From NCBI GenBank assembly GCA_046045415.1, contig JBJOLT010000015.1, forward strand, positions 5,988-69,987: 64,000 nucleotides of DNA. Reading direction: 5' to 3'. The notes beneath the pieces were generated by a model. The model ran no database searches. It had not been told where the DNA came from and saw nothing but the letters and a program-made list of their open reading frames with translations. This stretch comes from Chloroflexota bacterium. Its GTDB lineage: Bacteria > Chloroflexota > Limnocylindria > Limnocylindrales > CSP1-4. Every line of letters starts with the position of its first letter. The first letter of the stretch is position 1. Of the stretch, positions 5,726 through 59,161 are shown piece after piece. The translations under genes were made by a program, and so were the position numbers.

Positions 5726-5771
5726 CCGATGCTCCTCTCGCGTCGCGACCCGCCGGGACGGACCGCTCGCG

Positions 5772-6776: not shown

Positions 6777-6791
6777 CGTCCTCTTCCTCCG

Positions 6792-8291: not shown

Positions 8292-8354
8292 CCCTGCCTC
8301 GCGACCTCAGGCTCGTCACACTGCCGCCGGTCACCGTGAACCGGCCCTGAAACG

Positions 8355-8390
8355 CCGTTCGGAGGCCCGGCGAACCGGGCCTCCGAACGG
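8355..8390 (-). promoter_or_regulatory. Intercistronic 16-bp perfect stem-loop with a UUCG tetraloop, between the binding-protein and ATPase genes
   Basis: CCGTTCGGAGGCCCGG cgaa CCGGGCCTCCGAACGG on the plus strand. On the transcribed minus strand the loop reads UUCG. It lies in the 152-nt spacer downstream of the SBP stop (8444) and upstream of the ATPase ATG (8291). Confidence 0.6.
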
Positions 8391-8443
8391 TACCACTCGC
8401 GGTGTTCGCTTCGACCGCCCCGGAGGGACGGCCTCGCGGGCTC

Positions 8444-9412: not shown

Positions 9413-9496
9413 CTACGGATTCCTCCTCTGTCTCACCGATCGGCCGGTCCGTGCCCCGAGGGTCACGCGTCCCGTCGGTCGGTCATCGATTGCCGG

Positions 9497-9526
9497 ACGC
9501 TACCGAGCCGGCATCGCACGCGTCAA
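9497..9526 (-). promoter_or_regulatory. Candidate SigA-type promoter for the ABC/iol operon
   Basis: On the minus strand: TTGACG (9526..9521), an 18-nt spacer, then TAGCGT (9502..9497). It sits in a locally lower-GC 228-nt intergenic region, about 80 nt upstream of the SBP ATG. Confidence 0.35.
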
Positions 9527-9580
9527 GCGATGACGCGCGAGATGGCGACACTTTACGGTCTCCGGGCGCGCTCGTCATCA

Positions 9581-9602
9581 CCGATCCGCGACCGATCCGC
9601 GA
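9581..9602. repeat. Perfect 11-bp tandem direct repeat (CCGATCCGCGA x2) upstream of the candidate promoter
   Basis: Read directly: ccgatccgcga ccgatccgcga at 9581-9591 and 9592-9602. It could be an operator, but no regulator gene was recognised in the window. Confidence 0.5.
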
Positions 9603-9639
9603 CCGCGCCGAGTCCGACGGGCGCCGGGGGACGGGGCCC

Positions 9640-10569
9640 TCAGCGCGCCGGGAGCGGCCGACCGGGACCGAGGCCGATCCCCTCGAAGTAGACCCGGGTC
9701 CGGGTCGCGACGGGGAGCGGAGCGTCGAGCGCGCAGCCGAGCATGTCCTGCTCGACGATGCAGAAGAGGTCGCGGTCGAGCGCGGCGAGGGCGTCGAGGA
9801 CCGGCTCCATCGCCGGCTCCCCCTTCGGCGGCTCGATCATCACGCCGCGGCGGCAGGCCGGAGCGAAGCCCCACTGCTCGGCCTGGGCGCGGTCGCGGAC
9901 CGCCGGGTCCACCTGCTTGAGGTGGACGTACGCGATCCGCTCCGGGAAGTCGCGGATCAGCGCGAGGCTGTCGGCGCGGCCGTAGGCGACGTGGCCGGTG
10001 TCGAGGCAGAGGTTGACGTAGCGCGGGTCGGTCCCGTCGAGGAGGCGGACGATCTCGTCGTGCGTCTCGACATGGCTGTCCGCGTGCGAGTGGTAGACGA
10101 GCTTGAGGCCGTGCTGCTCGAGGAGGTACTTCCCGAGCTCGTCGTGGAGCGCCATCAGGTCGCGCCAGCCGTCGTCGGCGAGCGACCGGTCGATCGCCGG
10201 CTTGCCGTCGAGGTCGGTCGTCCCCTCGGGGAGGATCACGACGTACTCGGCGCCGAGCGGGAGGAGCGTCCGCGCCTCGGCGTCGCACGCCTCCTTCGCC
10301 TCCTGCCAGGCGGCACGCCCCCGCTGGAGCTTCGTCTGGACGGTCCCGCCGGTGAGCGTCAGGCCGCGCCGGCCCAGCTCCTCCTTGAGGCGGACCGGAT
10401 CGCTCGGGTTGTAGCCGTAGGGGCCGAGCTCCGTGTAGCGGTAGCCGGCCTTCGGGACCTCGTCGAGGTACTGCTCCCACGGGACCTGCTCGGGCGTGTA
10501 CGGGAACCAGACGCCCCAGGAGTCCGGGGCCGTCCCGAGGTGGAGCTTCGAGTAGTCGCGCGGGCTCAC
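9640..10569 (-). CDS. iolE: Xylose-isomerase-like TIM-barrel protein, IolE-like inosose dehydratase
   Basis: LGTAPDSWGVW, LVYHSHADSHVETHDEIVRLLDGTDPRYVNLCLDTGHVAY, VHLKQV and CIVEQD parallel B. subtilis IolE. I chose GTG at 10569 because GGAGGAGG lies 5 nt upstream. The ATG at 10617 used by the ORF track has no SD. Confidence 0.8.
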   Translation of the reverse strand: MSPRDYSKLHLGTAPDSWGVWFPYTPEQVPWEQYLDEVPKAGYRYTELGPYGYNPSDPVRLKEELGRRGLTLTGGTVQTKLQRGRAAWQEAKEACDAEARTLLPLGAEYVVILPEGTTDLDGKPAIDRSLADDGWRDLMALHDELGKYLLEQHGLKLVYHSHADSHVETHDEIVRLLDGTDPRYVNLCLDTGHVAYGRADSLALIRDFPERIAYVHLKQVDPAVRDRAQAEQWGFAPACRRGVMIEPPKGEPAMEPVLDALAALDRDLFCIVEQDMLGCALDAPLPVATRTRVYFEGIGLGPGRPLPAR

Positions 10570-10729
10570 GTGGTCCTCCTCCGTGCCGCGCCGGCGCCGC
10601 GTGAGCGCGTGGTCCATCTCGGCAACGGGACGAGACGCTATCGACCGGCCCGGCCCGTGTCAATCGCGGGGGGTCGCGCCGGGTCGGGGACGTCGTGCGG
10701 CCGCGTGGCGCGGGGCGCATCCTCTCGGC

Positions 10730-14717: not shown

Positions 14718-14794
14718 TGGTCGGGGCGGCCGGATTCGAACCGGCGATCTCGTGCTCCCAAAGCACGCGCGTTGCCAGACTACGCCACGCCCCG
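14718..14794 (-). tRNA. tRNA-Pro (anticodon UGG), with encoded CCA
   Basis: Cloverleaf folded by hand: acceptor CGGGGCG/CGCCCCG, D-stem GCGT/ACGC, anticodon stem CGTGC/GCACG with loop TTTGGGA, T-arm GCCGG-TTCGAAT-CCGGC, discriminator A plus CCA. 77 nt. Confidence 0.9.
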
Positions 14795-21166: not shown

Positions 21167-22380
21167 CCGGACGAGGATACCGGACGTCCCGGGCCGCTCA
21201 TCAGGCGATCGACGACCGCGAGGTAGCGCGGCGCCTCCGCCTCCCACGAGCGCTCCCGGGCGAGCGCGAGCGTCCGTCCGACCCGCGCCGCCCGCGCCTC
21301 GGGCTCGTCGACGAGCGAGAGGATCGCGGCGGCCATCGCGGCGGCGTCCCCCGGCTCGTACGCGAGGACGCTCCCGGGCGGGCAGGTCGCCTCGACCATC
21401 GGGAGCCGGGTCGCGACGACCGGCTTCCCCATCGCCGCGTACTCGAAGATCTTCGTGGAGAGGCTGACGTCCGTGAAGGCGTCGCGGCGGGTCGGGGCGA
21501 GCCCGACGTCGGCGGCCGCGAGGACGGCGGGGACCTCCTCGAGCGGGATCCGGCCGTGGAGGCGGACGCGGTCGGCGATCCCGCGCGCGGCGGCGAGGGC
21601 GGCGAGCGCGGGGGCGGTGTCGCCCCGGCCGTAGATGTCGAACACGAGCGCGAGCTCCGGGCGCCGCTCGCGGATGAGCGCGACCGCCTCGACGGCCACG
21701 TCGACCTCGTAGGTCGGCGTGAGGGCGCCCGCGTAGACGAGCCGGAGCGTCCCGTCGGCCATGAACGCGCGGACCGGATGGGCCGCGGGGTCGAAGCGGG
21801 CGAGGGCGGCGAGGTTCCGGACGACGCTCACCTTCCGCACCGGGACGCCGGCGGCGAGGAGCCGCGCCTCCAGCGCCTCGTTCACGACGAGGACCTCCGA
21901 TGCGATCGCGACGGCGAGCCGCTCCTGGAGGACGAGGAGCGCGTGGGCGACGGGGTTCGCGGCCGCCGGGAAGCGGCTCCGGAAGAACTCGGGCATCGCC
22001 TCGTGGAAGTCGACGAGGAGCGGGACCCCGGCGAGCCGGAGCGGGAGCGCCGCGGCCGCGAGCAGGTCGGGGATCGTGTGGACCTGGACGAGCCCGTACC
22101 GGCGGCGGCGGTGCGCCCGGACGAGCGCGATCGTCGAGCGGACGAGGAAGTCGAGGTACTCGGCGGCGTACCGGCCGATCCCCGCCCCCTGGTGGCGCTG
22201 GACCCCGAGCCGGGCGACCCGGACCCCGGCGATCGTCGCCTCCGACGGCTCCCCCGGCCGCCGGAGCGCGATGACGTCGACCTCGCGGCCGGCGGCGACG
22301 AGCGCCTCGGCCTCGCGCCTGACGCGCGGATCCTCGTCGTAGTACGAGTGGACGATCATGCAGACCGGCGGGCGGCTCAC
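21163..22380 (-). CDS. Glycosyltransferase, GT4-type (GT-B fold)
   Basis: 405 aa with a C-terminal [17 protein letters not shown] motif. GTG start at 22380 or ATG at 22359. Confidence 0.85.
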
Positions 22381-22440
22381 CCGCTGATGCTATCGGCTCG
22401 GCCGCCGCCACCGTGCGGGGGCGTGCTACCGTGCGCGCCG

Positions 22441-23334
22441 ATGGAGAGAAGCCCCGCGCCGGCCGCCGAGGACGGCGTCGCGCTCCGCTCGACCGCCGAC
22501 CGGCCGGGACCGCTCGGGCTGATCCGCGAGGCGATCGCCGAGACCGCGTCCCGCCGCCGGCTGATCCGCTACCTCGTCCAGGCGGACCTGAAGAAGAAGG
22601 GGTCGGACACCCTCCTCGGGAACGTCTGGTGGATCCTCGACCCGCTCCTCCAGATGGCGGTCTACGTCGTCCTCGTCACCGTCATCTTCCAGCGGACGGT
22701 CCCGGACTACCCGCTCTTCATCTTCGCGGCGATCCTCCCGTGGAAGTGGTACACGAGCAGCGTGAGCGACGCGATCGGCTCGGTCGTCGGCCAGGAGCGG
22801 CTCATCAAGCAGATCCACTTCCCGAAGCTGATCCTCCCGACCGCGACGACGGTCGCGGGGATCGCGAACTTCGGCTTCGGGCTCGTCGCCCTCGCCGGGC
22901 TCCTCGTCGTCTTCTACGCGGACCGCGCGTCGCCGTACCTCCTCCTCCTCCCGGCGATCGCCGCGGTCCAGCTCGTCCTGACGCTCGCGGTCGCGTACGT
23001 CGTCTCCGCCGTGAACGTCTTCTTCCGCGACGTCGCGAACGTGAGCCGGCACGCGCTCCGGATCTGGTTCTACCTCTCGCCCGGGCTCTACGGCGCCGAC
23101 GCGATCGAGGCGCTCAGCGAGACGAACCCGCTCGTCGCCGACCTCATGCGGCTCAACCCGTTCTACACGCTCTTCGAGTCGTACCGGGCGGTGATCTACG
23201 GGACGGCGGCCGGCGGGCCGACGAGCCCGCCGTGGGCGGAGCTCGCCGCGTGGGGCCTCGGTTCGGTCGTCCTCCTCGCGCTCGCGACGTTCGTCTTCAA
23301 GCGGCTCGAGCCCGCGTTCGCGAAGGTCCTCTGA
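22441..23334 (+). CDS. ABC-2 type polysaccharide/teichoic-acid exporter permease (Wzm/TagG-like)
   Basis: 297 aa with DLKKKGSDTLLGNVWWILDPLLQM and 6 predicted TM segments. It is the internal part of ORF 21556..23334. Confidence 0.85.
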   Translation: MERSPAPAAEDGVALRSTADRPGPLGLIREAIAETASRRRLIRYLVQADLKKKGSDTLLGNVWWILDPLLQMAVYVVLVTVIFQRTVPDYPLFIFAAILPWKWYTSSVSDAIGSVVGQERLIKQIHFPKLILPTATTVAGIANFGFGLVALAGLLVVFYADRASPYLLLLPAIAAVQLVLTLAVAYVVSAVNVFFRDVANVSRHALRIWFYLSPGLYGADAIEALSETNPLVADLMRLNPFYTLFESYRAVIYGTAAGGPTSPPWAELAAWGLGSVVLLALATFVFKRLEPAFAKVL

Positions 23335-46255: not shown

Positions 46256-46500
46256 CGGCGCCCGGACCGGTCCTCCTCGCCCTCGTCGGTCCCGATCAGG
46301 AGGCGGAGGAGGAGGCCGCGGCGCGGCCGGGGACGCTCGGGGAGGGCGACGGTCGTGACGCCGGGGATCGGCGGGAGCTCGTCCTCTGCGGCGCCCGGCT
46401 TCGGGAGCGTCGCGCCGCACGACGGACAGACGGCGGCCGACTTCGCCCGCGACGCCTTCGGGAGCGGCTCCGAGCACCAGGGGCAGGCGGTCACTCCCAT
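46252..46500 (-). CDS. Small zinc-ribbon protein (82 aa)
   Basis: Starts [33 protein letters not shown] (CxxC-x15-CxxC). ATG at 46500 overlaps the guaA 3' end by 10 nt. Confidence 0.5.
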
Positions 46501-48236
46501 TCGATCGTCGCCGGCGGCTTCGAGCTGATGTCGTAGACGACGCGGTTCACGCCGGGCACCTCGTTCACGATCCGGGCGGAGATCCGCCCGAGGACGTCGT
46601 ACGGGAGCTTCGCCCAGTCGGCGGTCATCCCGTCCTCGGAGGTGACGGCGCGGATCGCGACGACGTTCGCGTAGGTGCGGCCGTCGCCCATGACGCCGAC
46701 GGAGCGGACCGGGGTGAGGATCGCGAACGACTGCCAGACGCTCCGGTAGAGGCCGGCCGCCTTGATCTCGTCGATCACGATCCAATCCGCCTCGCGGAGC
46801 GTGTCGAGCCGCTCGGCGGTCACCTCGCCGATGATCCGGATCGCGAGGCCGGGGCCGGGGAAGGGCTGGCGCTGGACCATCGCCTCCGGGAGCCCGAGCT
46901 CCAGCCCGACGACCCGGACCTCGTCCTTGAAGAGGTACCGGAGCGGCTCGATCAGCTGGAACCGGAGGTCCGCCGGGAGGCCGCCGACGTTGTGGTGCGT
47001 CTTGATCTTCTGGGCGGTCTTCGTGTCCGAGGTGGCCGACTCGATCACGTCTGGGTAGAGGGTCCCCTGGGTGAGGAAGTCGATCCGCCCGAGCTTCGTC
47101 GCCTCCTCCTCGAAGACGCGGATGAACTCGTCGCCGATGATCCGGCGCTTCTGCTCCGGGTCGATGACCCCCGCGAGCCGGGCGAGGAAGCGCTCCCGCG
47201 CGTCGACCATCACGAGCCGCATCCCGAGGTTCGCCTCGAAGGTCGCGCGGAGGAGCTCCGACTCCTTCTTCCGCATCAGCCCGTGGTCGACGTAGATGCA
47301 CGTGAGCCGGTCGCCGACCGCGCGATGGACGAGCGCCGCCGCGACCGCCGAGTCCACCCCGCCGGAGAGCGCGCAGATCACCTTCCCGTCGGAGCCGGTG
47401 GACGCGGCGTGCCCGTCGACCCGGTCGCGGATCTCCGCGACGGTCGTCTCGATGAAGTTCGCCGGGGTCCACGCGGGGGCGATCCGGGCGATCCCGGTCA
47501 CGAAGTTGCGGAGGAGGTCCTTGCCGCGCGGCGTGTGGACGACCTCGGGGTGGAACTGGATCCCGTAGAGGCGCCGGTCCGGGGCGGCGAGCCCCGCGTA
47601 CGGCGTCGAGTCGGTCTGGGCGGTCGCGACGAAGCCCTCGGGGAGCCGGGTGATCGAGTCGCCGTGGCTCATCCAGACCGGCTGATCCCGCTCGAGCCCG
47701 GCGAAGAGCGCGTCCGACTCGCTCGTCACGTGGACCGACGCCGGCCCGTACTCGCGCTTCGCGGAGGCGGCGACCTCGCCGCCGAGCTCGCGCGCCATCA
47801 GCTGCGCGCCGTAGCAGATCCCGAGGACCGGGAGCCGGCCGCCCCAGATCGAGGCGTGCGGCCGCGGCGCCCCGGCGTCGTAGACGGAGTTCGGGCCGCC
47901 GGAGAGGATCACCGCGCGGACGCCGCGTCGCTCGAGCTCGTCGACCGGCGTGTCGTGCGGGAGGAGCTCGGAGTAGACGTTCAGCTCGCGGACCCGGCGG
48001 GCGATCAGCTGCGCGAACTGGCTCCCGAAGTCGAGGACGGCGACGACGCCCGGCTCCGGGACGATCGCGGCCGTCGGCGGCGGGTCCGACGGCGCCCGCG
48101 ACGGCGCGGGCGCATCGAGCGCGACCTCGAGATAGGCCTCGACCTCCGCGTCGTCGGGCGCGAGGACCCGGTGCCCGGCGTTCGCCGCGTCGCCGTGGAC
48201 GGTCTTCCCGCGCTCGGTCCTCCCGCGCTCGGTCAC
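46491..48236 (-). CDS. guaA: GMP synthase (glutamine-hydrolysing) with an N-terminal extension of about 65 aa
   Basis: Contains [39 protein letters not shown] and a C-terminal ATIEWE. The only canonical in-frame start is GTG at 48236. Confidence 0.9.
48204..48233. repeat. 15-nt tandem duplication at the guaA 5' end ([10 protein letters not shown])
   Basis: cttcccgcgctcggt (48204-48218) and cctcccgcgctcggt (48219-48233), with one mismatch. Confidence 0.7.
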
Positions 48237-48294
48237 GCTCGATCGATCCTCCGTCGGCCGCGTCCACCCCGTCCGCGACAGTCTATCGGTGGGC

Positions 48295-48717
48295 TCACGA
48301 CCGGTTCCGCATCGCCTCGGCGGCCATCGCGAGGTAGCCGTCGATCCGCTCGACGACGACCGGCGGCGTCCCGAGCTCGGCCGCCGTCACGGCGAGCGAG
48401 GCGCGCATCGCCTCGAGCCAGTGGTCGCGCTCCTCCGGCCCGATCGGGAACTCGAAGTGACGCGCTCGGAGGCGGGGGTGGCCGCGCTCGGCGGAGTAGG
48501 TCGTCGGGCCGCCCCAGTACTGGGCGAGGAAGAGGGTGAGGCGGCGTCGGGCGGGGCCGAGGTCATCCCGCTCGGGGTAGAGGCGAAGGAGGACCTCGTC
48601 GGTCGCCACCCGATCGTAGAAGCCGTCGACGAGCCGCTCGAAGAACGGCATCCCGCCGGCGGCCTCGAAGACGCTCGTCTCGTCGTCGGCTCCGGCGGCG
48701 GCCGGTTCGCTCGTCAC
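48295..48717 (-). CDS. glbO: Group II truncated haemoglobin (GlbO/trHbO)
   Basis: Contains [42 protein letters not shown] and ERDHWL, matching M. tuberculosis GlbO from memory. GTG at 48717, 10 nt after the guaB3 stop. Confidence 0.85.
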
Positions 48718-48727
48718 GGGTCCCGGG

Positions 48728-49918
48728 TCAGCCGCCGCGCTGCCAGCTCTTCCCCTCGGTCTGCACCGACGGGGCATGGACGATCTCGACCGCCTGCATC
48801 TCGCGGAGCGTGCGGGCCCCGAGGGCGGCCATCGACTGGCGGAGCGCGCCGACGAGGTTCTCGGAGCCGTCGGTGACGCGCGCCGGGCCGAAGAGGATCC
48901 GCTCGAGGCTCCCGACCGTCCCGACCGAGATCCGCGTCCCGCGCGGGAGCGTCGGCGACGGGGCGGCCATCCCCCAGTTCGTCCCCCGGCCGGGCGCCTC
49001 CTCGGCGCGGGCGAGCGGCGAGCCGAGCATCACCGCATCCGCTCCGGCGGCGATCGCCTTCGCCAGCTCGCCGCCCCGGCGCATCCCGCCGTCGGCGACG
49101 ACCGGGACGTACCGGCCGGTCTCCTTCATGTACGCGTCGCGCGCGGCGGCGACGTCGGCGATCGCGGTGACCTGCGGGACGCCGATCCCGAGGACCTCGC
49201 GCGTCGTGCACGCGGCCCCGGGCCCGACGCCGACGAAGACCGCGGCGGCGCCCTGCTCCATGAGGGCGAACGCCGCTTCCGCGTTCGTCGTGTTCCCGAC
49301 CGCGACCGGGATCGGCATGAAGCGGGTGAAGTCGCCGAGCTCGAGCGGCTCGTAGCCGGTCGCGAGGTGGCGGGCGCTGCTCACCTGGCTCTGGACGAGG
49401 AAGAGGTCGGCGCCGTGCTCGGCGCAGAAGGGACCCCACCGTCGGGCCGCGGCGGGGGTGGCGGCCACCGCGACCTTCGAGCCGGCGTCGCGGATCGCGG
49501 CGAGGCGTCGGGCGACGAGCTCCTCCTGAAGAGGCTCGGCGTATGCCGCCGCGAGCAGCCCCTGGACCTCGTCCTTCGGCGCGGCCGCGATCCGGGCGAG
49601 GACGGCGTCGGGGTCGGGGAAGCGACCCTGGACGCCCTCGAGGTTGAGGACCGCGAGCCCGCCGAGGCGGGCGAGCTCGCCGGCGAGCCGCGCGTCGACG
49701 ACGGCGTCCATCGCGGCGGCGAGGACCGGGATCGCGAGCGGGATCCCGGCGAAGACCTGGGAGAGGTCGACGTCGCCGGGCTCGACCGTGCTCGTTCCGG
49801 GAGCGAGCGAGACGTCCTCGAAGCCGTAGGTCGGGCGGATCGCATCGACCTTCGAGCGGAAGACCCGCCGGGCCGCGGGATCGGTCGCCGAGACCGGGAC
49901 GCCTCTTCCGTGCTGCAA
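48728..49918 (-). CDS. GuaB3-type IMP dehydrogenase-family protein (no CBS pair)
   Basis: Contains YGFEDVSLAPG, IPVLAAAMD, GVGPGAACTTREVLGIGVPQ and ADGGMRRGGELAKAIAAGADAVMLG. I chose TTG at 49918 because a GGAGGG SD lies 5 nt upstream. The track ORF starts at GTG 49969. Confidence 0.8.
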   Translation of the reverse strand: MQHGRGVPVSATDPAARRVFRSKVDAIRPTYGFEDVSLAPGTSTVEPGDVDLSQVFAGIPLAIPVLAAAMDAVVDARLAGELARLGGLAVLNLEGVQGRFPDPDAVLARIAAAPKDEVQGLLAAAYAEPLQEELVARRLAAIRDAGSKVAVAATPAAARRWGPFCAEHGADLFLVQSQVSSARHLATGYEPLELGDFTRFMPIPVAVGNTTNAEAAFALMEQGAAAVFVGVGPGAACTTREVLGIGVPQVTAIADVAAARDAYMKETGRYVPVVADGGMRRGGELAKAIAAGADAVMLGSPLARAEEAPGRGTNWGMAAPSPTLPRGTRISVGTVGSLERILFGPARVTDGSENLVGALRQSMAALGARTLREMQAVEIVHAPSVQTEGKSWQRGG

Positions 49919-50067
49919 CGCGGCCCTCCAGGGTTGCCGGCGCTGCCGGCGGGGGTGAGCGGGTTGCACGCCAGTCTACAGCGGCGCCGCGGAGGCGGCC
50001 GGATCGACGACCCCGATCGACGTGCCGCACCGGCGTCCGGCCGCGCCGCGCAGCCGTGGCGCGTCCC

Positions 50068-50556
50068 TCAGGTCAGTGCCCGGGCCCCCGCGAGCGTCAG
50101 CTCGAACCAGACGGCGCGCGCCGGGTCCGCGAGATCCTCGGCGATCCGCCGGAGCGCCTCGCGATAGCCGGGCCAGACGACCTCGGCGATCGCGTCCTCG
50201 ATCGGGACCCACCGGTGCCCGTCGTGCTCGTGCGAACGGACGGGCTCGATCCCCGGGCGGACGACGACGGCGAAGACCGCGCTCAAGACGACGGCGTCGA
50301 CCGACGGCTCGTGGAACTGGTTCACGAGGTCGAGGTCGTAGAAGGCCTCGATCCCGTCGGCGGCGATCCCGGTCTCCTCGGCGAGCTCGCGGAGCGCGCC
50401 GAAGGTGATCCGCTCCCCCGGCTCGAGCGACCCGGAGACGCACTGCCAGAGGCCGGGGAGGATCCGGCCCGGGGCGCGGCGGAGGAGCAGGGTCTCGAGG
50501 CGGTCGCCGGCGCGCCGGACGACCCAGCAGTCGACGAGGTCCGGCCTGAGGCTCAC
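50068..50556 (-). CDS. NUDIX hydrolase
   Basis: 162 aa from GTG 50556. Nudix box GSLEPGERITFGALRELAEETGI. Confidence 0.8.
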   Translation of the reverse strand: MSLRPDLVDCWVVRRAGDRLETLLLRRAPGRILPGLWQCVSGSLEPGERITFGALRELAEETGIAADGIEAFYDLDLVNQFHEPSVDAVVLSAVFAVVVRPGIEPVRSHEHDGHRWVPIEDAIAEVVWPGYREALRRIAEDLADPARAVWFELTLAGARALT

Positions 50557-50569
50557 GGGGCGGCGGCGA

Positions 50570-50899
50570 TCAGAGCCGCTCGAACCGCTCGACCGGGACG
50601 ACGAAGACCGTCGCCCCGCCGATCTCCACCTCGAGCGGGTACGGCATGAAGAACTCGCCCGGCTCGACGATCGGCGGCAGCGGGTCGACGACCTGGGTCC
50701 GGGCGCGGCACGTCTCGCGGACGATCCCGAGGATCTCGTCGATCCGATCCTCCTCGGCGCCGACGAGGACGGTCGCGTTCGACTGGCGGAGGAACCCGCC
50801 CGACGACTGGAGGCGGGTCGCCCGGTGGTCGGCGGCGAGGAGCGCCTCGACGAGCGGGCCCGCATCCTCGCCGTGGACGATCGCGATGACGAGCTTCAC
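50570..50899 (-). CDS. darA: PII-like cyclic-di-AMP receptor DarA/PstA (YaaQ family)
   Basis: The 109-aa product aligns end to end with B. subtilis YaaQ from memory: MKLVIAIV, TRLQSSGGFLRQSNATVLVG, PYPLEVEIGGATVFVVPVERF. Confidence 0.9.
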   Translation of the reverse strand: MKLVIAIVHGEDAGPLVEALLAADHRATRLQSSGGFLRQSNATVLVGAEEDRIDEILGIVRETCRARTQVVDPLPPIVEPGEFFMPYPLEVEIGGATVFVVPVERFERL

Positions 50900-50990
50900 G
50901 GGGACGAGTATCGGTCAGGCGGGCCGCCGGGTCCACCCTCCCGGGGACGGTCGGGGGACCGGCCCGGGGAGGGGGCTCGTCGCGACCCCC

Positions 50991-50996
50991 TACAAT
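50991..50996 (+). promoter_or_regulatory. Candidate -10 box (TACAAT) for the GAF-GGDEF gene
   Basis: A near-consensus hexamer in the 95-nt divergent spacer. It overlaps the ATG used by the ORF track. It is followed by GGAGGAGGAG and then GTG at 51025. Confidence 0.35.
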
Positions 50997-51024
50997 GCGC
51001 GGGACGACCCCGGAGGAGGAGCTG

Positions 51025-52047
51025 GTGGCGATCGAGGGACCCGGCACGGAGACGAAGCTCGACGCGCTGACCGACGCAGCGGCTGCGCTCGCGCGGGCGA
51101 GCGACCTCGACGCCGCGATCGGGGCGATCCTCGACGCGACCGTCGGCGCGGTCGGCGCGACCGCCGGCGCGGTCTTCCTCCGCCAGCCCGACTCGCCGAT
51201 CCTCTACGTCGCCGCCCGCCACGGCCTCGACGACGCCGCGGTCGCGACCTTCGAGCGCGAGGTCGAGGACCCGGCCCACCCGGTCGCCGCCGCCGCCCGC
51301 GACGTCGCCGCGGTCTTCGACCGCCCGGTCGTCGGCGCCGAACCGCGGGCCCGCTCGGCGGCGGACCTCCCGCTCGTCGTCACCCACGAGGGCCTCGACC
51401 TCGCCCTCGGCGTGATGACGCTCGCCTGGGCGAGCGCGCGGACGACCTCCCGGAGCGAGCAGCAGCTCGCGCGCGCCGCCGCGGACCTCATCGCCGCCGC
51501 GGTCGACCGGGCGCACCTCGGCGCGCTCCTCGCCGAGCGGGCGGAGTGGTACGAGCGGCTCACCCACACGGACGCCCTCACCGGGCTCGCGAACCGGCGG
51601 ACCTTCGAGCGGGTCCTCGAGATGGACCTCGCCCGGGCCGCGCGGCAGCGGACCGAGCTCTCGCTCGTCGTCTTCGACGTCGACGACTTCGGGAACCTGA
51701 ACGCGACCCGCGGCCACGCCGTCGGCGACGACGTCCTCCGGACGATCGCCGCGACGATCGCGGAGGGGGTCCGCCTCGTCGACACCGTCGCCCGGCTCGG
51801 ACCGGACGAGTTCATCGTCAGCGCCCCCGGGGCGGGCGGCGTCGTCGTCGCCCGCCGCATCCTCGCGACGCTCGCGGCCGGGAACGCGGAGGGCGGGGAG
51901 CCGTTCACCACCTCCGCCGCCGTCGTCCGCTACCCGAGCGACGGGGCGGACGGTCCGGAGCTGATCGCGGCCGCCGAGGCGGCGATCGCCCGGGCGAAGG
52001 CGCAGGGCCCCGGTTCGGTCGAGGCCGCGGAGTACCTCGCGCCCTAG
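51025..52047 (+). CDS. GAF-domain protein with a degenerate GGDEF domain (GPDEF, with RxxD retained)
   Basis: Contains DALTGLANRR, FDVDDFGNLNATRGHAVGD and RLVDTVARLGPDEF. GTG at 51025 follows GGAGGAGGAG. The alternative ATG at 50995 has no SD. Confidence 0.8.
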   Translation: MAIEGPGTETKLDALTDAAAALARASDLDAAIGAILDATVGAVGATAGAVFLRQPDSPILYVAARHGLDDAAVATFEREVEDPAHPVAAAARDVAAVFDRPVVGAEPRARSAADLPLVVTHEGLDLALGVMTLAWASARTTSRSEQQLARAAADLIAAAVDRAHLGALLAERAEWYERLTHTDALTGLANRRTFERVLEMDLARAARQRTELSLVVFDVDDFGNLNATRGHAVGDDVLRTIAATIAEGVRLVDTVARLGPDEFIVSAPGAGGVVVARRILATLAAGNAEGGEPFTTSAAVVRYPSDGADGPELIAAAEAAIARAKAQGPGSVEAAEYLAP

Positions 52048-52727
52048 GCCCCGGGCGTCCCGACGGCGAGCCCGAGCCGCCGGACCGCATCGGCGAGCGA
52101 GCCCGCGACCGTCGCCTCGTCGCGAGTCGCGTCGACGACGACCCAGCGGGCCGGGTCCTCGGCCGCGAGCCGGAGGAAGCCCGCCCGGACCCGCTCGTGG
52201 AACGCGACGTCGAAGGCCGACTCGAACCGGAGATGCTCGTCGGAGCCCTTCCGCGCGAGACCGGCGGCGACCGGGACGTCGAGGAGGATCGTGAGGTCCG
52301 GCCGGAGGCCGCCGGTCGCGTAGGCGCCGATCGCCCGGAGCTCGTCGACCGGCTGCCCGGAGCCGAAGCCCTGGTAGGCGAGCGTCGAGTCCGCGTACCG
52401 GGCGACGATGACGACCTCGCCGCTCGCGAGCGCCGGCTCGATCACCTCGTCGACGTGCTGGGCGCGGGCGGCGTTGAAGAGGAGGACGTCGGTCCGCGGC
52501 CCGATCGGGACCTCGGCCGGGTCCGCGCGGAGGAGCAGCTCGCGGATCCGCTCGCCGGCGGCCGTCCCCCCCGGCTCCCGCGAGAGCCTCACCCGGTGCC
52601 CGGCGGCGGTGAGCGCCGCGGCGAGCCGGGCCGCCTGCGAGGTCTTGCCGCTCCCGTCGGGGCCCTCGATCGTGATGAACCGGCCGCGCGCGGCGTGCTG
52701 CCGGGGAGGGGCGGTCGGGTCGCTCAC
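52044..52727 (-). CDS. tmk: Thymidylate kinase
   Basis: 227 aa with FITIEGPDGSGKTS, REPGGT and DRY-like ARYADSTLAYQG. GTG start. Confidence 0.9.
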   Translation of the reverse strand: MSDPTAPPRQHAARGRFITIEGPDGSGKTSQAARLAAALTAAGHRVRLSREPGGTAAGERIRELLLRADPAEVPIGPRTDVLLFNAARAQHVDEVIEPALASGEVVIVARYADSTLAYQGFGSGQPVDELRAIGAYATGGLRPDLTILLDVPVAAGLARKGSDEHLRFESAFDVAFHERVRAGFLRLAAEDPARWVVVDATRDEATVAGSLADAVRRLGLAVGTPGA

Positions 52728-56616: not shown

Positions 56617-57039
56617 TCAGCGGCGGGCGCCTCGTCCGTCGAAGAACCCGAGCCGGACGAGCAGGTCCCGGTTCGCCGCCACCGCCGCGTAGAGGAGCCG
56701 GACCGCGCGACGGAACGGGGTGACGCCGAGCCACGGGCGGACCGCGCCGCCCCCCGGGAGCCGGACCGCGATCGCGAGGATCGCGTCGCCGCCACGCGCC
56801 ACCTCCCCGCTCCGCGGGTCGACGACGGTGAGCGCCTCGGCGAGATCGTGCGTCCCTGCAGCCGCGCGCACGTGGTCGTGGGCGGACCCGGGCGCCTCGG
56901 CGAGCGGGAGCAGCTCGAACGCCCGGCGGCCCCTCGGCCCGGCATCCCAGCGCCGGAGGTGCGCGACCGCCCAGCGGCAGAACGAGCACTCCCCGTCGTA
57001 GAGGACGACGAGCGACCCGGCGCCCCCGGTCAGCCCCAC
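56617..57039 (-). CDS. DCC-family thiol-disulfide oxidoreductase (DUF393)
   Basis: 140 aa with the [15 protein letters not shown] motif. GTG at 57039 overlaps the end of the upstream gene by 10 nt. Confidence 0.8.
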
Positions 57040-59144
57040 GAGCTGCGGGCCGTCTCGGGGTAGAGCCTGACGCGCCGGTACGGCTCCCGGCCGCGGGACC
57101 GCGAGACGACGTTCGCGCGCTCGGCGAGCTGGTGCTGGAGGCGGCGGATGTACGCGTTCTGCGGCGAGAGCTCCACCGGCTCCGAGCCGTGGAGGACGAG
57201 CCCGATCCCCTCCTCGGCCTCGCGGAGCGCCGCCTCGCGCGGGTCGATCGCGAGCGAGAAGATCGAGGTGAGGCTCGCCTCCATCTGGAGGACCGTGTTG
57301 CTCTTCAGGACGTAGACGGGCATCGAGCGCTCCTCCGCCTCGCGGAGCTGCGGCGTCTTCTGGCGGTACTCGCTCTTCAGCACCATGACGACGTCGGCCT
57401 CGTCCACGTCGCGCGCGACGACGACGGGGAGCTGGAGCTCGCGGACCGCCTGCTCGAGCCGCTTCCGGCTCACCCCGATCGGCAGGACCCGGATCGTCGG
57501 GAGGATCGACCCCTCCTCGTCGTCGTACCCGGCGTCCGCGTCTGCGCCGGACCCGAAGGCCTCGGCGGCGAGCTGCTCCGCGTTGACCGGGCCGGTCCCC
57601 TCCTCGGCCCGGAGCGACGTGATCGCCCGCTCCGCCTGGTCGAGCCACTCCTGCTGGCGGCGGAGCTCCCGGGCGTCGCGGGCGCGCGGCTCCGGGGAGG
57701 GGACGGCGCCGCGCTCGAGCGGACCGCGGTCCGCGATCTCGCCGATGACGAACGGGACGCCCGGCACGGTCGGCGCCGCGCCGCCGGGGGCGGCCGGACC
57801 GACTGCGAGGTCGCGACCGGAGAGCCGCTCCCCGGGGAGCGAGTACGGTCCCCCGGGCGGGCCGCCGTCGCCGCGGTCGTGGCGGGTGCCGGTCCCGCGA
57901 CCCGCCGACTCGCGGCCGCCCGGCTCGCGGCCGCGCGCCCCCCGCCAGCCGCCGGACTGACCGGGCCGGTACCCCGGGCGGTACGCCGCTCCCTGCTCCC
58001 CGTGGCCGCCGCGGTACGAGCCACCGCGCCAGCCCGGCTCCATCCGCCATGGCGCGCCGCCACCGACGAGGCCGGCGAAGCGCTCGGTGCCGAGACGCTC
58101 GCGCGGCGACGGGCGCGGCCGCGACTGGGACCGGTGGACCCCCTCCTCGTCGCGCCACCGGAGCTCCGGCGCCTCGGGCTCCCCGCGGAGGAGCGAGTCG
58201 ACGGTCTCCGCGACGTCGGCGTGGACGATCACCCGGTCGCGGTCCTGGATCTCGATGACGACGTCGAAGGTGGGCGGCGCCTTCCGCTCGAGGACGCTCT
58301 TCTGCGAGCGGCGGCGGCGGGCTTCCTCGTCGCCGAGCGTGACGCTCTGGATCCCGCCGATCAGGTCCGAGAGGGTCGGGTTGAGCATCAGGTTGTCGAG
58401 GTTGTTCCCGTGCGCCGTCCCGATCAGCTGGACGCCCCGCTCCGCGATCGTCCGGGCGGCCTGCGCCTCGAGCTCCGTCCCGATCTCGTCGATGACGATC
58501 ACCTGGGGCATGTGGTTCTCGACCGCCTCGATCATCACCTCGTGCTGGAGCGAGGGCGTCCGGACCTGCATCCGGCGCGCCTTGCCGATCGCCGGATGCG
58601 GGATGTCGCCGTCCCCGGCGATCTCGTTCGACGTGTCGACGACGACGACCCGCTTGCGGAGGTCGTCGGCGAGGACGCGCGCCGCCTCGCGGAGCATCGT
58701 CGTCTTGCCGATCCCCGGGCGGCCCATGATGAGGATCGACTTCCCGCTCTCGACGAAGTCCCCGATGATCTCGATCGTCCCGAAGACGGCGCGCCCGATC
58801 CGGCAGGTGAGCCCGACGATCTTCCCGTTCCGGTTCCGGATGGCGCTGATCCGGTGGAGCGTCCGCTCGATGCCCGCCCGGTTGTCGTCGCCGAACGACC
58901 CGATGTGGTCGACGACGTAGCCGATGTCGGCCTCGGTGACCTCGCGCTCGAGGAGCATCACCTCGTCGTTCGGGAAGCGCGCCTCGGGACGCCGGCCCAG
59001 GTCGAGGACGACCTCGATGAGGTCGGACCGGTCCGGGAGGGCGCGGACGGCGGCGACCACCTCCGGCGGGAGCGCCGTCAGGAGGAGCTCGAGGTCGTCG
59101 GCCGCCTCGCGGCGGGTGGCTGCGGTCGGGCGCGGGTCGGGCAC
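57030..59144 (-). CDS. SpoIIIAA/Ycf45-like AAA ATPase fused to a C-terminal R3H domain through a Gly/Arg-rich linker
   Basis: About 704 aa with Walker [10 protein letters not shown] and Walker B VIVIDEIG. The RGG-type linker reads [34 protein letters not shown]. The C-terminus is [33 protein letters not shown] (R3H). GTG at 59144 follows GGAAGGAGAG. Alternative GTG at 59159. Confidence 0.8.
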
Positions 59145-59161
59145 GGTCTCTCCTTCCACGC

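What the first reader, a model, noticed from the sequence alone, without database searches (positions are those of the whole stretch)
50570..52727. Second-messenger corner: c-di-AMP receptor DarA, a divergent degenerate GAF-GGDEF protein and tmk
DarA/YaaQ is a near full-length match to the Firmicute PII-like c-di-AMP receptor, and such a receptor is unexpected in a high-GC actinobacterial-type genome. As in B. subtilis (tmk-yaaQ), it is linked to tmk. Here, however, a GAF-GGDEF gene is inserted between them on the opposite strand. The A-site of that GGDEF domain is degenerate: GPDEF replaces GGDEF, and the FKxxND Lys and Asp are replaced (FGNLNA). The RxxD inhibitory site exactly five residues upstream (RLVD-TVARL-GPDEF) is intact. 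The GAF-GGDEF protein is therefore more likely a c-di-GMP or other-ligand receptor than a cyclase.
Basis: partly seen in the sequence, partly recalled or inferred. Interest (0 to 1): 0.5.

Follow-up and report, generated by a model that had tools for sequence, protein, structure and literature searches.

The report
DarA receptor beside degenerate GAF-GGDEF gene
A soil Chloroflexota (Limnocylindria) genome carries an ordinary c-di-AMP receptor gene (darA) back-to-back with a GAF-GGDEF gene whose catalytic site is spoiled but whose c-di-GMP-binding site is intact; the parts are known kinds, and only their strictly conserved pairing is new.

Summary
On the minus strand, darA (50570-50899) is a gapless, full-length PstA/DarA homolog with every mutationally validated c-di-AMP contact kept. 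tmk (52044-52727) is a bona fide dTMP kinase.

The stated reason for surprise is wrong. The genome is Chloroflexota, class Limnocylindria, not actinobacterial. PstA homologs in green non-sulfur bacteria were reported in 2015.

New here:
- The GGDEF gene belongs to a Limnocylindria-specific ortholog family, about 340 aa long.
- Divergent darA lies next to it in 47 of 48 metagenome loci that hold enough upstream DNA.
- All four I-site residues (R214, R260, D263, R288) are invariant in the orthologs. The transition-state Lys and the R446 phosphate clamp are lost family-wide.
- The second Gly of GGDEF was replaced repeatedly. GPDEF marks a whole clade.
- The gene is under strong purifying selection (dN/dS 0.07).

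It is most likely a c-di-GMP-binding effector or sensor, not a cyclase. A functional DarA-GGDEF link is possible but unproven. No cyclase or phosphodiesterase for either messenger lies in the 64 kb. Interest is low to moderate.

The parts
50570..50899 (-). darA: PII-like c-di-AMP receptor of the PstA/DarA family, 109 aa, GTG start
   Evidence: PF06153 scores 124.9 bits over the full length. The alignment to PstA, DarA and Lmo2692 structures is gapless. K2, D12, R26, T28, G34-G35-F36-L37, N41, T43, G47, R67, G94-G95-A96 and F99 are kept, read against the residues listed in PMC4316997. dN/dS is 0 against strain L004, with 10 synonymous and 0 non-synonymous differences.
50068..50556 (-). NUDIX hydrolase gene, 13 nt downstream of darA and probably co-transcribed with it
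   Evidence: PF00293 scores 66 bits. The best NCBIfam hit is NudB-like at 48 bits, below its cut-off. The gene is adjacent to darA in many relatives, but the gap ranges from -7 to 2554 nt.
50900..51024 (.). Divergent promoter region between darA and the GGDEF gene
   Evidence: Alignment-free comparison of 67 loci. The region is non-conserved apart from the promoter-like hexamers listed in the following parts.
50907..50912 (-). darA -10 hexamer GATACT, 7 nt before the GTG start, which implies a leaderless mRNA
   Evidence: A TATACT/GATACT hexamer ends 6-8 nt before the darA start codon in 55 of 67 loci. No Shine-Dalgarno is present. Coordinates were verified.
50930..50935 (-). darA -35 hexamer TGGACC, with a 17-nt spacer
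   Evidence: TTGACC or TGGACC lies 17-18 nt upstream of the -10 hexamer in 22 loci. Coordinates were verified.
50991..50996 (+). GGDEF-gene -10 hexamer TACAAT, which overlaps the ORF-caller's ATG at 50995
   Evidence: TACGAT, TACAAT or a similar hexamer is present in 63 of 67 loci. Coordinates were verified.
51012..51027 (+). Shine-Dalgarno GGAGGAGGAG followed by the probable true start codon GTG (51025)
   Evidence: Ortholog N-termini align to residue 11 of the 350-aa ORF. Orthologs are 337-340 aa long. Relatives show CAGGAG followed by GTG.
50995..52047 (+). GAF-GGDEF protein gene: 350-aa ORF, probably 340 aa from 51025
   Evidence: PF00990 scores 105.6 bits. The AF2 model has pLDDT 91.3. 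The Foldseek top hit is Dcsbis/PA2771, a GAF-GGDEF diguanylate cyclase (4zmu, E 1e-16). dN/dS is 0.07 against L004.
51046..51429 (+). GAF domain; ligand unknown
   Evidence: A profile of 20 ortholog N-termini hits PDB GAF domains (DosT/DevS, CyaB2, NifA) at E 2e-5 to 1e-3. A GAF-only model has pLDDT 91.2. The best Foldseek matches are PtsP GAF domains, TM 0.71-0.74.
51451..51567 (+). Long linker helix (residues 153-191) joining GAF to GGDEF
   Evidence: DSSP on the AF2 model gives H153-191. That it acts as a dimerising signalling helix, as in other sensor DGCs, is an inference.
51565..52026 (+). GGDEF domain
   Evidence: The Pfam stretch covers residues 191-338.
51634..51636 (+). R214, equivalent to PleD R313 (the I-site Arg contributed to the neighbouring protomer)
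   Evidence: The D193-D228 segment registers without gaps against PleD D292-D327. R214 is invariant in A1. Residue roles are taken from PMC7288161.
51688..51705 (+). FGNLNA in place of FKxxND: K332 becomes Gly233, N335 is kept (N236), D336 becomes Ala237
   Evidence: Across the family, position 233 is A31/R26/G25 and position 237 is A53/E33/D12. K332 is described as the transition-state stabiliser in PMC12943098.
51772..51783 (+). I-site RxxD (R260-L-V-D263), five residues before GPDEF
   Evidence: R260 and D263 are present in 121 of 121 orthologs, and RLVDTV(A/G)R is almost invariant.
51799..51813 (+). Degenerate A-site motif GPDEF (G369 becomes Pro270)
   Evidence: Position 270 is G104/A8/P7 across the family. 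GPDEF is shared by the clade of the query plus P0121-P0126, down to 59% identity. The G-to-A change at this position is the routine DGC-dead allele (PMC11575326).
51856..51858 (+). R288, equivalent to PleD R390 (third I-site residue)
   Evidence: Present in 121 of 121 orthologs. Its role is taken from PMC7288161.
51994..52011 (+). AKAQGP: K442 equivalent kept (K335), R446 equivalent lost (P339)
   Evidence: Aligned against AK..GR(N/S) of PA0575 and WspR. Across the family, position 339 is R42/P25/A19.
52044..52727 (-). tmk, dTMP kinase, convergent with the GGDEF gene. The two stop codons overlap in the palindrome CTAG (52044-52047)
   Evidence: TIGR00041 scores 157.1 bits against a cut-off of 83.25, and PF02223 scores 151.6 bits. 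The stop-codon overlap was verified.

Best explanation
This is a housekeeping nucleotide-metabolism neighbourhood of a Candidatus Limnocylindria (Chloroflexota) genome. The gene order is guaA, globin, IMPDH-like, NUDIX, darA | GAF-GGDEF | tmk, tldD, pmbA. The ancient tmk-darA pair has been separated by a lineage-specific GAF-GGDEF gene on the opposite strand.

darA:
- Shown: it encodes a PstA/DarA-type PII-like protein.
- Inferred: it forms a trimer, binds c-di-AMP at the subunit interfaces through T28, the G34-L37 T'-loop, N41, G47 and F99, and signals through its long B'-loop to a partner that is not identified.
- Inferred: it is transcribed as a leaderless mRNA from its own sigma-70-type promoter, together with a NUDIX gene.

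GAF-GGDEF protein:
- Shown (AF2 model): a soluble protein built as GAF, long helix, GGDEF.
- Shown: it keeps the Mg- and guanine-binding residues (D228, D271, E272, N236, D245).
- Shown: it has lost the second Gly of GGDEF (to Pro), the transition-state Lys (to Gly), the adjacent Asp (to Ala) and the phosphate-clamp Arg (to Pro).
- Shown: it keeps a complete four-residue I-site (R214, R260, D263, R288).
- Inferred: it makes little or no c-di-GMP. Instead it binds intercalated c-di-GMP dimers at the I-site, and possibly GTP at the crippled A-site. It would act as a GAF-modulated c-di-GMP (or GTP) sensor or effector.

The pairing: the two genes are fired from back-to-back promoters within about 100 bp, and this arrangement is almost universal for the GGDEF family. 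By default I treat the pairing as inherited synteny with possible co-regulation. Direct DarA-GGDEF signalling is a minority possibility.
For: Taxonomy and synteny:
- DarA homologs at 75-81% identity carry Chloroflexota or Limnocylindrales names.
- Syntenic MAG contigs L007, L010, L011, L012 and L014 were found. The lineage was looked up.

DarA:
-, with ligand-contact residues read against PMC4316997 and PMC4475381.
- Purifying selection is shown.

tmk-darA ancestry: the genes are adjacent and co-directional in L015-L046 and other loci spanning Bacillota, Dormibacteria and Chloroflexia.

GGDEF architecture; GAF domain.

A-site and I-site residue mapping:
- HMMER alignments to WspR, PA0575 and PleD chains.
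- Residue roles from PMC12943098 and PMC7288161.

Family statistics:
- R260, D263 and R288 are present in 121 of 121 orthologs. Second-Gly counts are G104/A8/P7. K332 is replaced by A, R or G, and R446 by R42/P25/A19.
- R214 is invariant in A1.
- GPDEF is a clade synapomorphy. GADEF, GSDEF and RADAF arose independently in several lineages.
- G-to-A at this position is the standard inactivating allele.
- dN/dS is 0.07, so the gene is not a decaying pseudogene.

Pairing and promoters:
- 47 of 48 loci carry divergent darA, with a median gap of 101 bp.
- Promoter hexamers.
Against: - Nothing was measured. c-di-AMP binding by this DarA, and loss of cyclase activity and c-di-GMP binding by this GGDEF protein, are predictions from sequence.
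- The NCBIfam DarA equivalog model scores 127.3 bits, below its 140-bit cut-off.
- Two PstA pocket residues differ: N24 is Asp and Q108 is Arg.
- 104 of 121 orthologs still read GGDEF, and the metal- and guanine-binding residues are invariant. This is what one expects of enzymes. The family may be made of slow cyclases, and Pro at the second position has never been tested.
- No diadenylate cyclase, EAL, HD-GYP, PilZ or second GGDEF gene lies in the 64 kb. It is therefore not shown that the organism makes either messenger.
- The promoter and leaderless-mRNA assignments rest on conserved hexamers only.
Confidence: 0.65

Rival explanations
1. The GAF-GGDEF protein is still an active diguanylate cyclase, perhaps a slow one. 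It would be regulated by its GAF domain and by product inhibition at the I-site, and GPDEF would be a tolerated variant.
For: - D228, D230, N236, G240, G244, D245, D271 and F273 are invariant, E272 is near-invariant (120 of 121), and K/R335 is kept across most of the family. 104 of 121 orthologs read GGDEF.
- PF00990 scores 105.6 bits.
- The best structural matches are active DGCs, including the GAF-GGDEF enzyme Dcsbis.
- An RxxD I-site is itself typical of active, feedback-inhibited DGCs.
- Purifying selection is strong.
Against: - In this protein four A-site positions are hit at once: G369P, K332G, D336A and R446P.
- Replacing the second Gly by Ala is the routine way to kill DGCs.
- To my knowledge, only first-position variants (A/S-GDEF) have been reported active.
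- Substitutions at the second Gly recur independently in the family while the I-site never changes. This is the pattern expected if binding, not catalysis, is what selection maintains.
Confidence: 0.2
2. DarA and the GAF-GGDEF protein form one signalling module. Apo-DarA or c-di-AMP-bound DarA would bind the GAF-GGDEF protein through its B'-loop, or the two would be co-regulated from the shared promoter region. Either way, c-di-AMP status would be coupled to c-di-GMP signalling.
For: - Divergent darA is present in 47 of 48 loci found through the GGDEF family, down to 37% GGDEF identity.
- The darA-GGDEF gap never exceeds 456 bp. The neighbouring junctions were opened repeatedly: a 1.5-kb anti-sigma/sigma insert sits between GGDEF and tmk in 25 of 42 loci, and up to 2.5 kb separates NUDIX from darA.
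- PII-type proteins act through protein partners, and DarA/PstA partners are almost unknown. GlnR was first proposed as one in a 2026 preprint, PMC13484208.
Against: - The whole guaA-to-pmbA region is syntenic within this one class, so the adjacency may simply be inherited.
- Any insertion into a 100-bp region that holds two promoters would be selected against whatever the functions of the two genes.
- No shared operator is conserved in the intergenic region.
- Limnocylindria that lack the GGDEF gene keep darA, with the same leaderless-type promoter (L013, L015).
- No paper links the two.
Confidence: 0.15
3. The DarA homolog of this lineage recognises a ligand other than c-di-AMP, or none at all, and has been kept only as a PII-like scaffold.
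For: - The NCBIfam equivalog score falls short of its cut-off (127.3 against 140 bits).
- N24 is Asp and Q108 is Arg in the pocket.
- No DAC gene lies in the window.
Against: - Every residue whose mutation abolishes or weakens binding (T28, N41, GGFL, F36) is kept. So are G47 and F99, which give adenine specificity.
- Listeria PstA lacks R26 and still binds, so single pocket changes are tolerated.
- Q108 to Arg preserves a phosphate-binding side chain.
- By general knowledge, DAC-domain cyclases occur in Chloroflexota. This was not tested here.
Confidence: 0.07

Closest known systems
PstA / DarA (YaaQ) PII-like c-di-AMP receptors of S. aureus, L. monocytogenes and B. subtilis (PDB 4d3h, 4rww, 4rle; Pfam PF06153)
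   Same: - The length is the same (109 aa) and the alignment is gapless.
- The TxLxxxGGFLxxxNxT T'-loop motif, the D12-R67 pair, the GGA motif and F99 are all present.
- The short T'-loop and long B'-loop layout matches.
- The gene is linked to tmk.
- Identity to Staphylococcus and Bacillus homologs is about 47-49%.
   Different: - The host is Chloroflexota (Limnocylindria), not Bacillota.
- N24 is Asp, Q108 is Arg, and G40/T42 are Ser/Ala.
- The gene is not co-transcribed with tmk. It has its own leaderless-type promoter, a NUDIX gene downstream and a divergent GGDEF gene upstream.
- It scores below the NCBIfam equivalog cut-off.
Degenerate-GGDEF c-di-GMP receptors that bind through the I-site (for example PelD of P. 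aeruginosa and PopA of C. crescentus; recalled from the literature, with PelD and I-site receptors listed in PMC7288161)
   Same: The fold is GGDEF. The GG(D/E)EF motif is non-canonical, and the RxxD lies five residues upstream together with the partner Arg residues.
   Different: - The A-site here is only partly degenerate: the metal- and guanine-binding residues are kept.
- The input domain is a single cytoplasmic GAF domain, and there is no membrane or receiver domain.
- Most orthologs keep GGDEF.
- c-di-GMP binding is untested.
Dcsbis (PA2771), a GAF-GGDEF diguanylate cyclase of P. aeruginosa (PDB 4zmu)
   Same: The two-domain architecture and size are the same. It is the best full-length structural match (E 1e-16) and also a sequence hit over residues 97-341. 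It too has an I-site.
   Different: Dcsbis is an active GGDEF enzyme. Here the motif is GPDEF and K332, D336 and R446 are lost. Identity is only about 24%.
GTP-sensing degenerate GGDEF domain of C. crescentus CC3396/PdeA (cited)
   Same: The A-site is catalytically dead but may still bind GTP, because the base- and metal-binding residues are kept.
   Different: CC3396 uses that domain to activate a fused EAL domain. No output domain is fused here.

Membership tests
PstA/DarA c-di-AMP receptor (PF06153; NCBIfam NF058593) | Full-length match to the family profile above the curated cut-off | tested here: met
   Pfam PF06153 scores 124.9 bits against a cut-off of 27, covering profile positions 1-108 of 109.
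PstA/DarA c-di-AMP receptor (PF06153; NCBIfam NF058593) | Score above the NCBIfam 'equivalog' cut-off for DarA | tested here: not met
   127.3 bits against a cut-off of 140. The model appears tuned to close (Bacillota-type) sequences. NCBI nevertheless names near relatives 'cyclic-di-AMP receptor'.
PstA/DarA c-di-AMP receptor (PF06153; NCBIfam NF058593) | Ligand-contact residues T28, G34-G35-F36-L37, N41, G47 and F99 (with R26), whose mutation abolishes or weakens binding | tested here: met
   All are present at identical positions in the gapless alignment, read against PMC4316997 and PMC4475381. Q108 is Arg and N24 is Asp.
PstA/DarA c-di-AMP receptor (PF06153; NCBIfam NF058593) | Short T'-loop, long B'-loop (residues 68-92), the D12-R67 pair, the G94-G95-A96 motif and K2 | tested here: met
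   There are no indels relative to 4d3g, 4rww and 4rle, and the residues are present.
PstA/DarA c-di-AMP receptor (PF06153; NCBIfam NF058593) | Specific c-di-AMP binding and trimer formation | not testable with these tools
   This needs DRaCALA or ITC and SEC-MALS on purified protein.
PstA/DarA c-di-AMP receptor (PF06153; NCBIfam NF058593) | A diadenylate cyclase (DAC domain) in the same genome | tested here: inconclusive
   No DisA_N/DAC domain is found among the 56 called genes of the 64-kb window. The rest of the genome is not available.
Active diguanylate cyclase (GGDEF, PF00990) | GGDEF-domain fold and profile match | tested here: met
   PF00990 scores 105.6 bits and TIGR00254 scores 102.8 bits. 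The AF2 model and Foldseek agree.
Active diguanylate cyclase (GGDEF, PF00990) | Canonical GG(D/E)EF (or A/S-GDEF) active-site hairpin | tested here: not met
   The motif is GPDEF at residues 269-273. Replacing the second Gly is the standard inactivating mutation.
Active diguanylate cyclase (GGDEF, PF00990) | Metal ligands (PleD D327, E370) and guanine-binding N335 and D344 | tested here: met
   D228, D271, N236 and D245 are present.
Active diguanylate cyclase (GGDEF, PF00990) | Transition-state Lys (K332) and phosphate-binding K442 and R446 | tested here: not met
   K332 is Gly233 and R446 is Pro339. K442 is kept as K335.
Active diguanylate cyclase (GGDEF, PF00990) | Conversion of GTP to c-di-GMP | not testable with these tools
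   An enzyme assay is needed.
I-site c-di-GMP-binding (receptor-type) GGDEF domains | RxxD five residues upstream of the GG(D/E)EF position | tested here: met
   The sequence reads RLVD-TVARL-GPDEF. R260 and D263 are present in 121 of 121 orthologs.
I-site c-di-GMP-binding (receptor-type) GGDEF domains | Partner arginines equivalent to PleD R390 and R313 | tested here: met
   R288 is present in 121 of 121 orthologs. R214 is invariant in A1.
I-site c-di-GMP-binding (receptor-type) GGDEF domains | c-di-GMP binding that depends on the RxxD motif, and a downstream output | not testable with these tools
   This needs binding assays with an R260A/D263A control. No output domain or partner has been identified.
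GAF sensor domain | Profile match or GAF fold | tested here: met
   Pfam GAF_3 scores 25.1 bits, below its cut-off of 27. However, the ortholog profile hits PDB GAF domains at E 2e-5. The GAF-only model (pLDDT 91) matches PtsP GAF domains with TM 0.71-0.74.
dTMP kinase (tmk) | Equivalog-level profile match | tested here: met
   TIGR00041 scores 157.1 bits against a cut-off of 83.25.

The most novel reading that the evidence does not exclude
In Limnocylindria, the GAF-GGDEF protein is the long-sought kind of direct DarA partner, or a co-regulated counterpart. The divergent pair would then be a dedicated node that couples c-di-AMP status to c-di-GMP signalling or GTP sensing, next to the guanine- and thymidine-nucleotide genes (IMPDH-like, guaA, tmk, NUDIX).
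Probability: 0.15. Interest if true: 0.65.

Novelty: new member of a known kind. Interest (0 to 1): 0.3.

Why it matters
DarA/PstA is the most conserved stand-alone c-di-AMP receptor, yet its partners have stayed obscure for a decade. A first target, GlnR, was only proposed in a 2026 preprint, and a genetic link to thymidine starvation was reported in 2025.

Two observations here bear on that gap:
- tmk-darA adjacency extends from Bacillota into Chloroflexota and Dormibacteria. This supports a deep functional tie between DarA and thymidylate metabolism.
- In one uncultured soil class, darA is almost always paired head-to-head with a GGDEF protein that has an invariant I-site. This offers a cheap, testable candidate for c-di-AMP/c-di-GMP cross-talk.

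If the pairing is only inherited synteny, the locus is ordinary: a standard receptor next to one more degenerate GGDEF protein.

Tried and rejected
- **Actinobacterial origin: rejected.** The nearest homologs and syntenic contigs are Chloroflexota / Limnocylindria.
- **'DarA is unexpected here': rejected.** About 2,000 homologs were scored, most of the top ones from Chloroflexota-type metagenome contigs. Campeotto 2015 already lists green non-sulfur bacteria.
- **Riboswitch or other known RNA in the darA/GGDEF intergenic region: none.** The Rfam gathering scan of the whole window found only a tRNA at 14721-14794.
- **Other second-messenger genes in the window: none.** The Pfam scan of all 56 called genes found no DAC, EAL, HD-GYP, PilZ or second GGDEF domain.
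- **Pseudogene or recent decay of the GGDEF gene: rejected.** dN/dS is 0.07, and GPDEF is shared across a clade with about 40% divergence.
- **Hypr (cGAMP-making) GGDEF: rejected.** The specificity position keeps Asp (D245, equivalent to PleD D344), not Ser.
- **darA's leaderless promoter arose because the GGDEF insertion cut it off from tmk: rejected.** L013 and L015, which lack the GGDEF gene, have the same -10-like hexamer 7 nt before the ATG.
- **GAF ligand: not resolved.** The fold search gives only generic GAF matches (PtsP, DosS/DosT, phytochromes) at 12-21% identity.
- **Shared operator in the intergenic region: not found.** Only the two promoters' hexamers are conserved. The GC-rich inverted repeat at about 50937-50975 is confined to near-identical strains.
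- **First GC3-based gene call was too strict.** It was replaced by a start-trimmed scoring.

Full report
**1. What is at the coordinates**

ORF listing and profile searches confirm the three genes.

- **darA, 50570-50899 (-), 109 aa.** It matches Pfam PF06153 (CdAMP_rec) over essentially the whole profile at 124.9 bits. It aligns without a single gap to S. aureus PstA (4d3g/4d3h, E 7e-31), Listeria PstA (4rww) and B. subtilis YaaQ/DarA (4rle).
- **tmk, 52044-52727 (-).** It passes the dTMP-kinase equivalog model at 157 bits against a cut-off of 83.
- **GAF-GGDEF gene, 50995-52047 (+).** PF00990 scores 105.6 bits.
FGNLNA is at 51688-51705, RLVD at 51772-51783 and GPDEF at 51799-51813.

**2. Whose genome it is**

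- The window has 70-79% G+C, but it is not actinobacterial.
- The DarA protein occurs identically on six metagenome contigs with the same gene order.
- Its closest homologs (75-81% identity) are named Chloroflexota or Candidatus Limnocylindrales by NCBI.
- A scan of one genome per species returned Limnocylindria and Chloroflexota MAGs first, then Dormibacteria, then Bacillota at 40-49% identity.
- Several of these MAG contigs share the whole pmbA-tldD-tmk-GGDEF-darA-NUDIX-IMPDH-like-globin order at 57-80% protein identity.
- Limnocylindria is a class of Chloroflexota.
- Choi et al. reported PstA absent from Actinobacteria. Campeotto et al. had already noted homologs in 'green non-sulfur bacteria', with three copies in Sphaerobacter and Thermomicrobium.

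**3. DarA in detail**

Because the alignment to PstA is gapless, PstA numbering applies directly.

- **Kept:** K2, D12, R26, T28, G34-G35-F36-L37, N41, T43, G47, R67, G94-G95-A96 and F99.
- **Functional basis:** these include the residues whose mutation abolishes or weakens binding (T28A, N41A, GGFL-to-AAAA, F36A). G47 and F99 explain adenine specificity.
- **Differences:** N24 is Asp and Q108 is Arg. The NCBIfam DarA equivalog model scores 127 bits, below its 140-bit cut-off.
- **Selection:** against a close strain (L004) the gene shows 10 synonymous and 0 non-synonymous differences.

I file it as a PstA/DarA-family member. c-di-AMP binding is inferred and was not tested.

**4. The tmk link**

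tblastn of the window's proteins on 86 loci shows tmk immediately upstream of darA and co-directional with it. This holds in Bacillota, Halanaerobiales, Dormibacteria, Chloroflexia, Anaerolineae and some Limnocylindria such as L015.

The pair is therefore ancient. That fits recent genetics linking PstA to thymineless death (PMC12802241).

In Limnocylindria the junction is an insertion hot spot:
- L013 carries an ABC-2 transporter and a LuxR-type regulator there.
- The window's lineage carries the GAF-GGDEF gene there.

**5. The GAF-GGDEF protein**

*Architecture*
- An AF2 model built on 56 orthologs has pLDDT 91.3. It shows a GAF domain (residues ~18-145), a long helix (153-191) and a GGDEF domain (192-344).
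- The best full-length structural match is Dcsbis/PA2771, a GAF-GGDEF cyclase (4zmu, E 1e-16).
- The GAF assignment is just below the Pfam cut-off for the single sequence (25.1 against 27 bits).
- It is secured by an ortholog profile that hits PDB GAF domains at E 2e-5.
- It is also secured by a GAF-only model matching PtsP GAF domains at TM 0.71-0.74.
- The GAF ligand is unknown.

*Residue mapping.* I mapped the GGDEF domain onto PleD using the HMMER alignments and published residue roles.
- **Kept:** the metal ligands (D228 = D327; D271/E272 = E370/E371), the guanine binders (N236 = N335; D245 = D344) and K335 (= K442).
- **Lost:** G369 is Pro270, the transition-state K332 is Gly233, D336 is Ala237, and the phosphate-clamp R446 is Pro339.
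- **I-site complete:** R260 and D263 (RxxD), R288 (= R390) and R214 (= R313).

**6. The ortholog family**

A database search found 461 proteins at E <= 1e-10, and the best 120 are about 340 aa long. The counts below come from 121 aligned sequences, that is the query plus those 120, and from alignment A1 of 56 orthologs.

- R260, D263 and R288 are present in 121 of 121. R214 is invariant in A1.
- D228, D230, N236, G240, G244, D245, D271, E272 and F273 are invariant or nearly so.
- The K332 position is A/R/G (31/26/25).
- The D336 position is A/E/D (53/33/12).
- The R446 position is R/P/A (42/25/19).
- The second Gly of GGDEF is G in 104, A in 8 and P in 7.

On a neighbour-joining tree, GPDEF is shared by the whole clade holding the window's protein (P0121-P0126, down to 59% identity). 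GADEF, GSDEF and RADAF appear independently in several other lineages.

GADEF is the routine engineered DGC-dead allele.

The window's gene is under strong purifying selection, with 40 synonymous against 8 non-synonymous differences versus L004 and dN/dS of 0.07.

The pattern is an I-site that never changes and an A-site that erodes repeatedly. It favours a protein whose maintained function is nucleotide binding rather than catalysis, at least in the GPDEF clade. Most of the family could still be slow, product-inhibited cyclases, and I keep that as the main rival (0.2).

**7. The pairing with darA**

A metagenome scan with the ortholog alignment returned 80 loci.

- Of the 48 loci with at least 700 bp upstream of the GGDEF gene, 47 carry divergent darA.
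- The darA-GGDEF gap has a median of 101 bp and a maximum of 456 bp.
- The GGDEF-tmk gap is bimodal. It is at most 161 bp in 17 loci and about 1.5 kb in 25 loci.
- The 1.5-kb insert contains an RskA-like anti-sigma gene in L099, and presumably its sigma factor.
- The NUDIX-darA gap ranges up to 2.5 kb.

So darA-GGDEF is the tightest junction of the neighbourhood, and the GGDEF family is essentially never found away from darA.

This is suggestive, but it does not prove coupling. All loci belong to one class with generally conserved synteny. A 100-bp region that holds two promoters would resist insertions in any case.

**8. The intergenic region**

Comparison of 67 loci gives the following.

- A TATACT/GATACT hexamer ends 6-8 nt before the darA start codon in 55 loci. 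In the window it is GATACT at 50907-50912.
- A TTGACC/TGGACC -35 hexamer sits 17-18 nt upstream in 22 loci. In the window it is at 50930-50935.
- There is no Shine-Dalgarno, so darA is probably translated from a leaderless mRNA.
- On the other strand, a TACGAT/TACAAT hexamer is present in 63 loci. In the window it is at 50991-50996.
- The ATG called at 50995 lies inside this hexamer.
- Orthologs start at the position of residue 11, behind a GGAGGAGGAG Shine-Dalgarno (51012-51021). GTG 51025 is therefore the likely start, giving 340 aa.
- The leaderless-type hexamer also occurs in Limnocylindria without the GGDEF gene. It is not a by-product of the insertion.
- No conserved operator and no Rfam family were found.

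**9. Rest of the window**

A Pfam scan of the 56 genes I called found no diadenylate cyclase, EAL, HD-GYP, PilZ or second GGDEF domain. Whether the organism makes c-di-AMP or c-di-GMP cannot be decided from these 64 kb.

**10. Verdict**

- The components are ordinary members of known kinds: a PstA/DarA receptor in a phylum where it is already known, and one more partly degenerate GAF-GGDEF protein.
The family analysis strengthens it.
- The one new element is the near-universal head-to-head pairing of darA with this invariant-I-site GGDEF family in Limnocylindria. I found no paper that describes it.
- I give 0.15 to the reading that this is a true c-di-AMP/c-di-GMP coupling module, which would deserve about 0.65 interest. 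Overall interest is 0.3.

Noticed in passing
window 949-1770 (-): A heliorhodopsin gene (Pfam PF18761, 262 bits over the full profile) lies between a Na+/H+ exchanger fragment and a transaldolase gene.
   Followed up: no
window 50995-51027 (+): The longest-ORF start of the GGDEF gene (ATG 50995) sits inside the conserved TACAAT -10 box. GTG 51025, behind GGAGGAGGAG, is the likely start. Automatic annotation on related contigs also aa.
   Followed up: yes
window 50900-50935 (-), and 67 related loci: darA appears to be leaderless. A TATACT/GATACT hexamer ends 6-8 nt before the start codon in 55 of 67 loci, and there is no Shine-Dalgarno. The same is seen in Limnocylindria without the GGDEF gene (L013, L015). 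Dormibacteria and Bacillota instead show Shine-Dalgarno-like sequences.
   Followed up: partly
L099 7064-8600 (and about 25 other loci, between the GGDEF gene and tmk): Many relatives carry a 1.5-kb insert with an RskA-like anti-sigma factor (N-terminal zf-HC2-type motif) and presumably an ECF sigma gene between the GGDEF gene and tmk. The window lacks this insert, and there the two genes' stop codons overlap (CTAG, 52044-52047).
   Followed up: partly
L013 5600-9960: In a Limnocylindria MAG without the GGDEF gene, an ABC-2 transporter pair and a 575-aa LuxR-type regulator occupy the tmk-darA junction. This junction seems to be a recurrent insertion site for regulatory genes.
   Followed up: no
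window 50937-50975: A GC-rich inverted repeat (CCCTCCCGGGG ... CCCGGGGAGGG) lies between the two divergent promoters. It is recognisable only in near-identical strains (L001-L006) and is not conserved in more distant relatives.
   Followed up: partly
window 46491-50556 (-): Downstream of darA on the same strand lie four genes: a NUDIX hydrolase, an IMPDH-related protein of 396-413 aa (its Pfam IMPDH match spans residues 48-328), a truncated (group 2-like) bacterial globin, and guaA. This makes a guanine-nucleotide flavoured neighbourhood next to a GTP-binding-type GGDEF domain.
   Followed up: no
window 57030-59159 (-): A 709-aa protein combines a SpoIIIAA-like P-loop ATPase region, a 'PTPase' domain (PF25516) and a C-terminal R3H domain, with a long low-complexity Gly/Arg-rich linker.
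   Followed up: no
window 2988-10617: An inositol-catabolism-like cluster is present. It holds IolB/KduI, an IolD-type TPP enzyme, a sugar ABC transporter (permease, ATPase, binding protein) and a xylose-isomerase-like TIM-barrel protein.
   Followed up: no
window 21556-22389 (+): The first ~280 codons of the long ORF 21556-23334 have no Pfam match and an odd Asp/Glu/Arg-rich composition. Only the part from about 22390 onward resembles an ABC-2 permease, weakly (23.6 bits). The true gene is probably shorter.
   Followed up: partly
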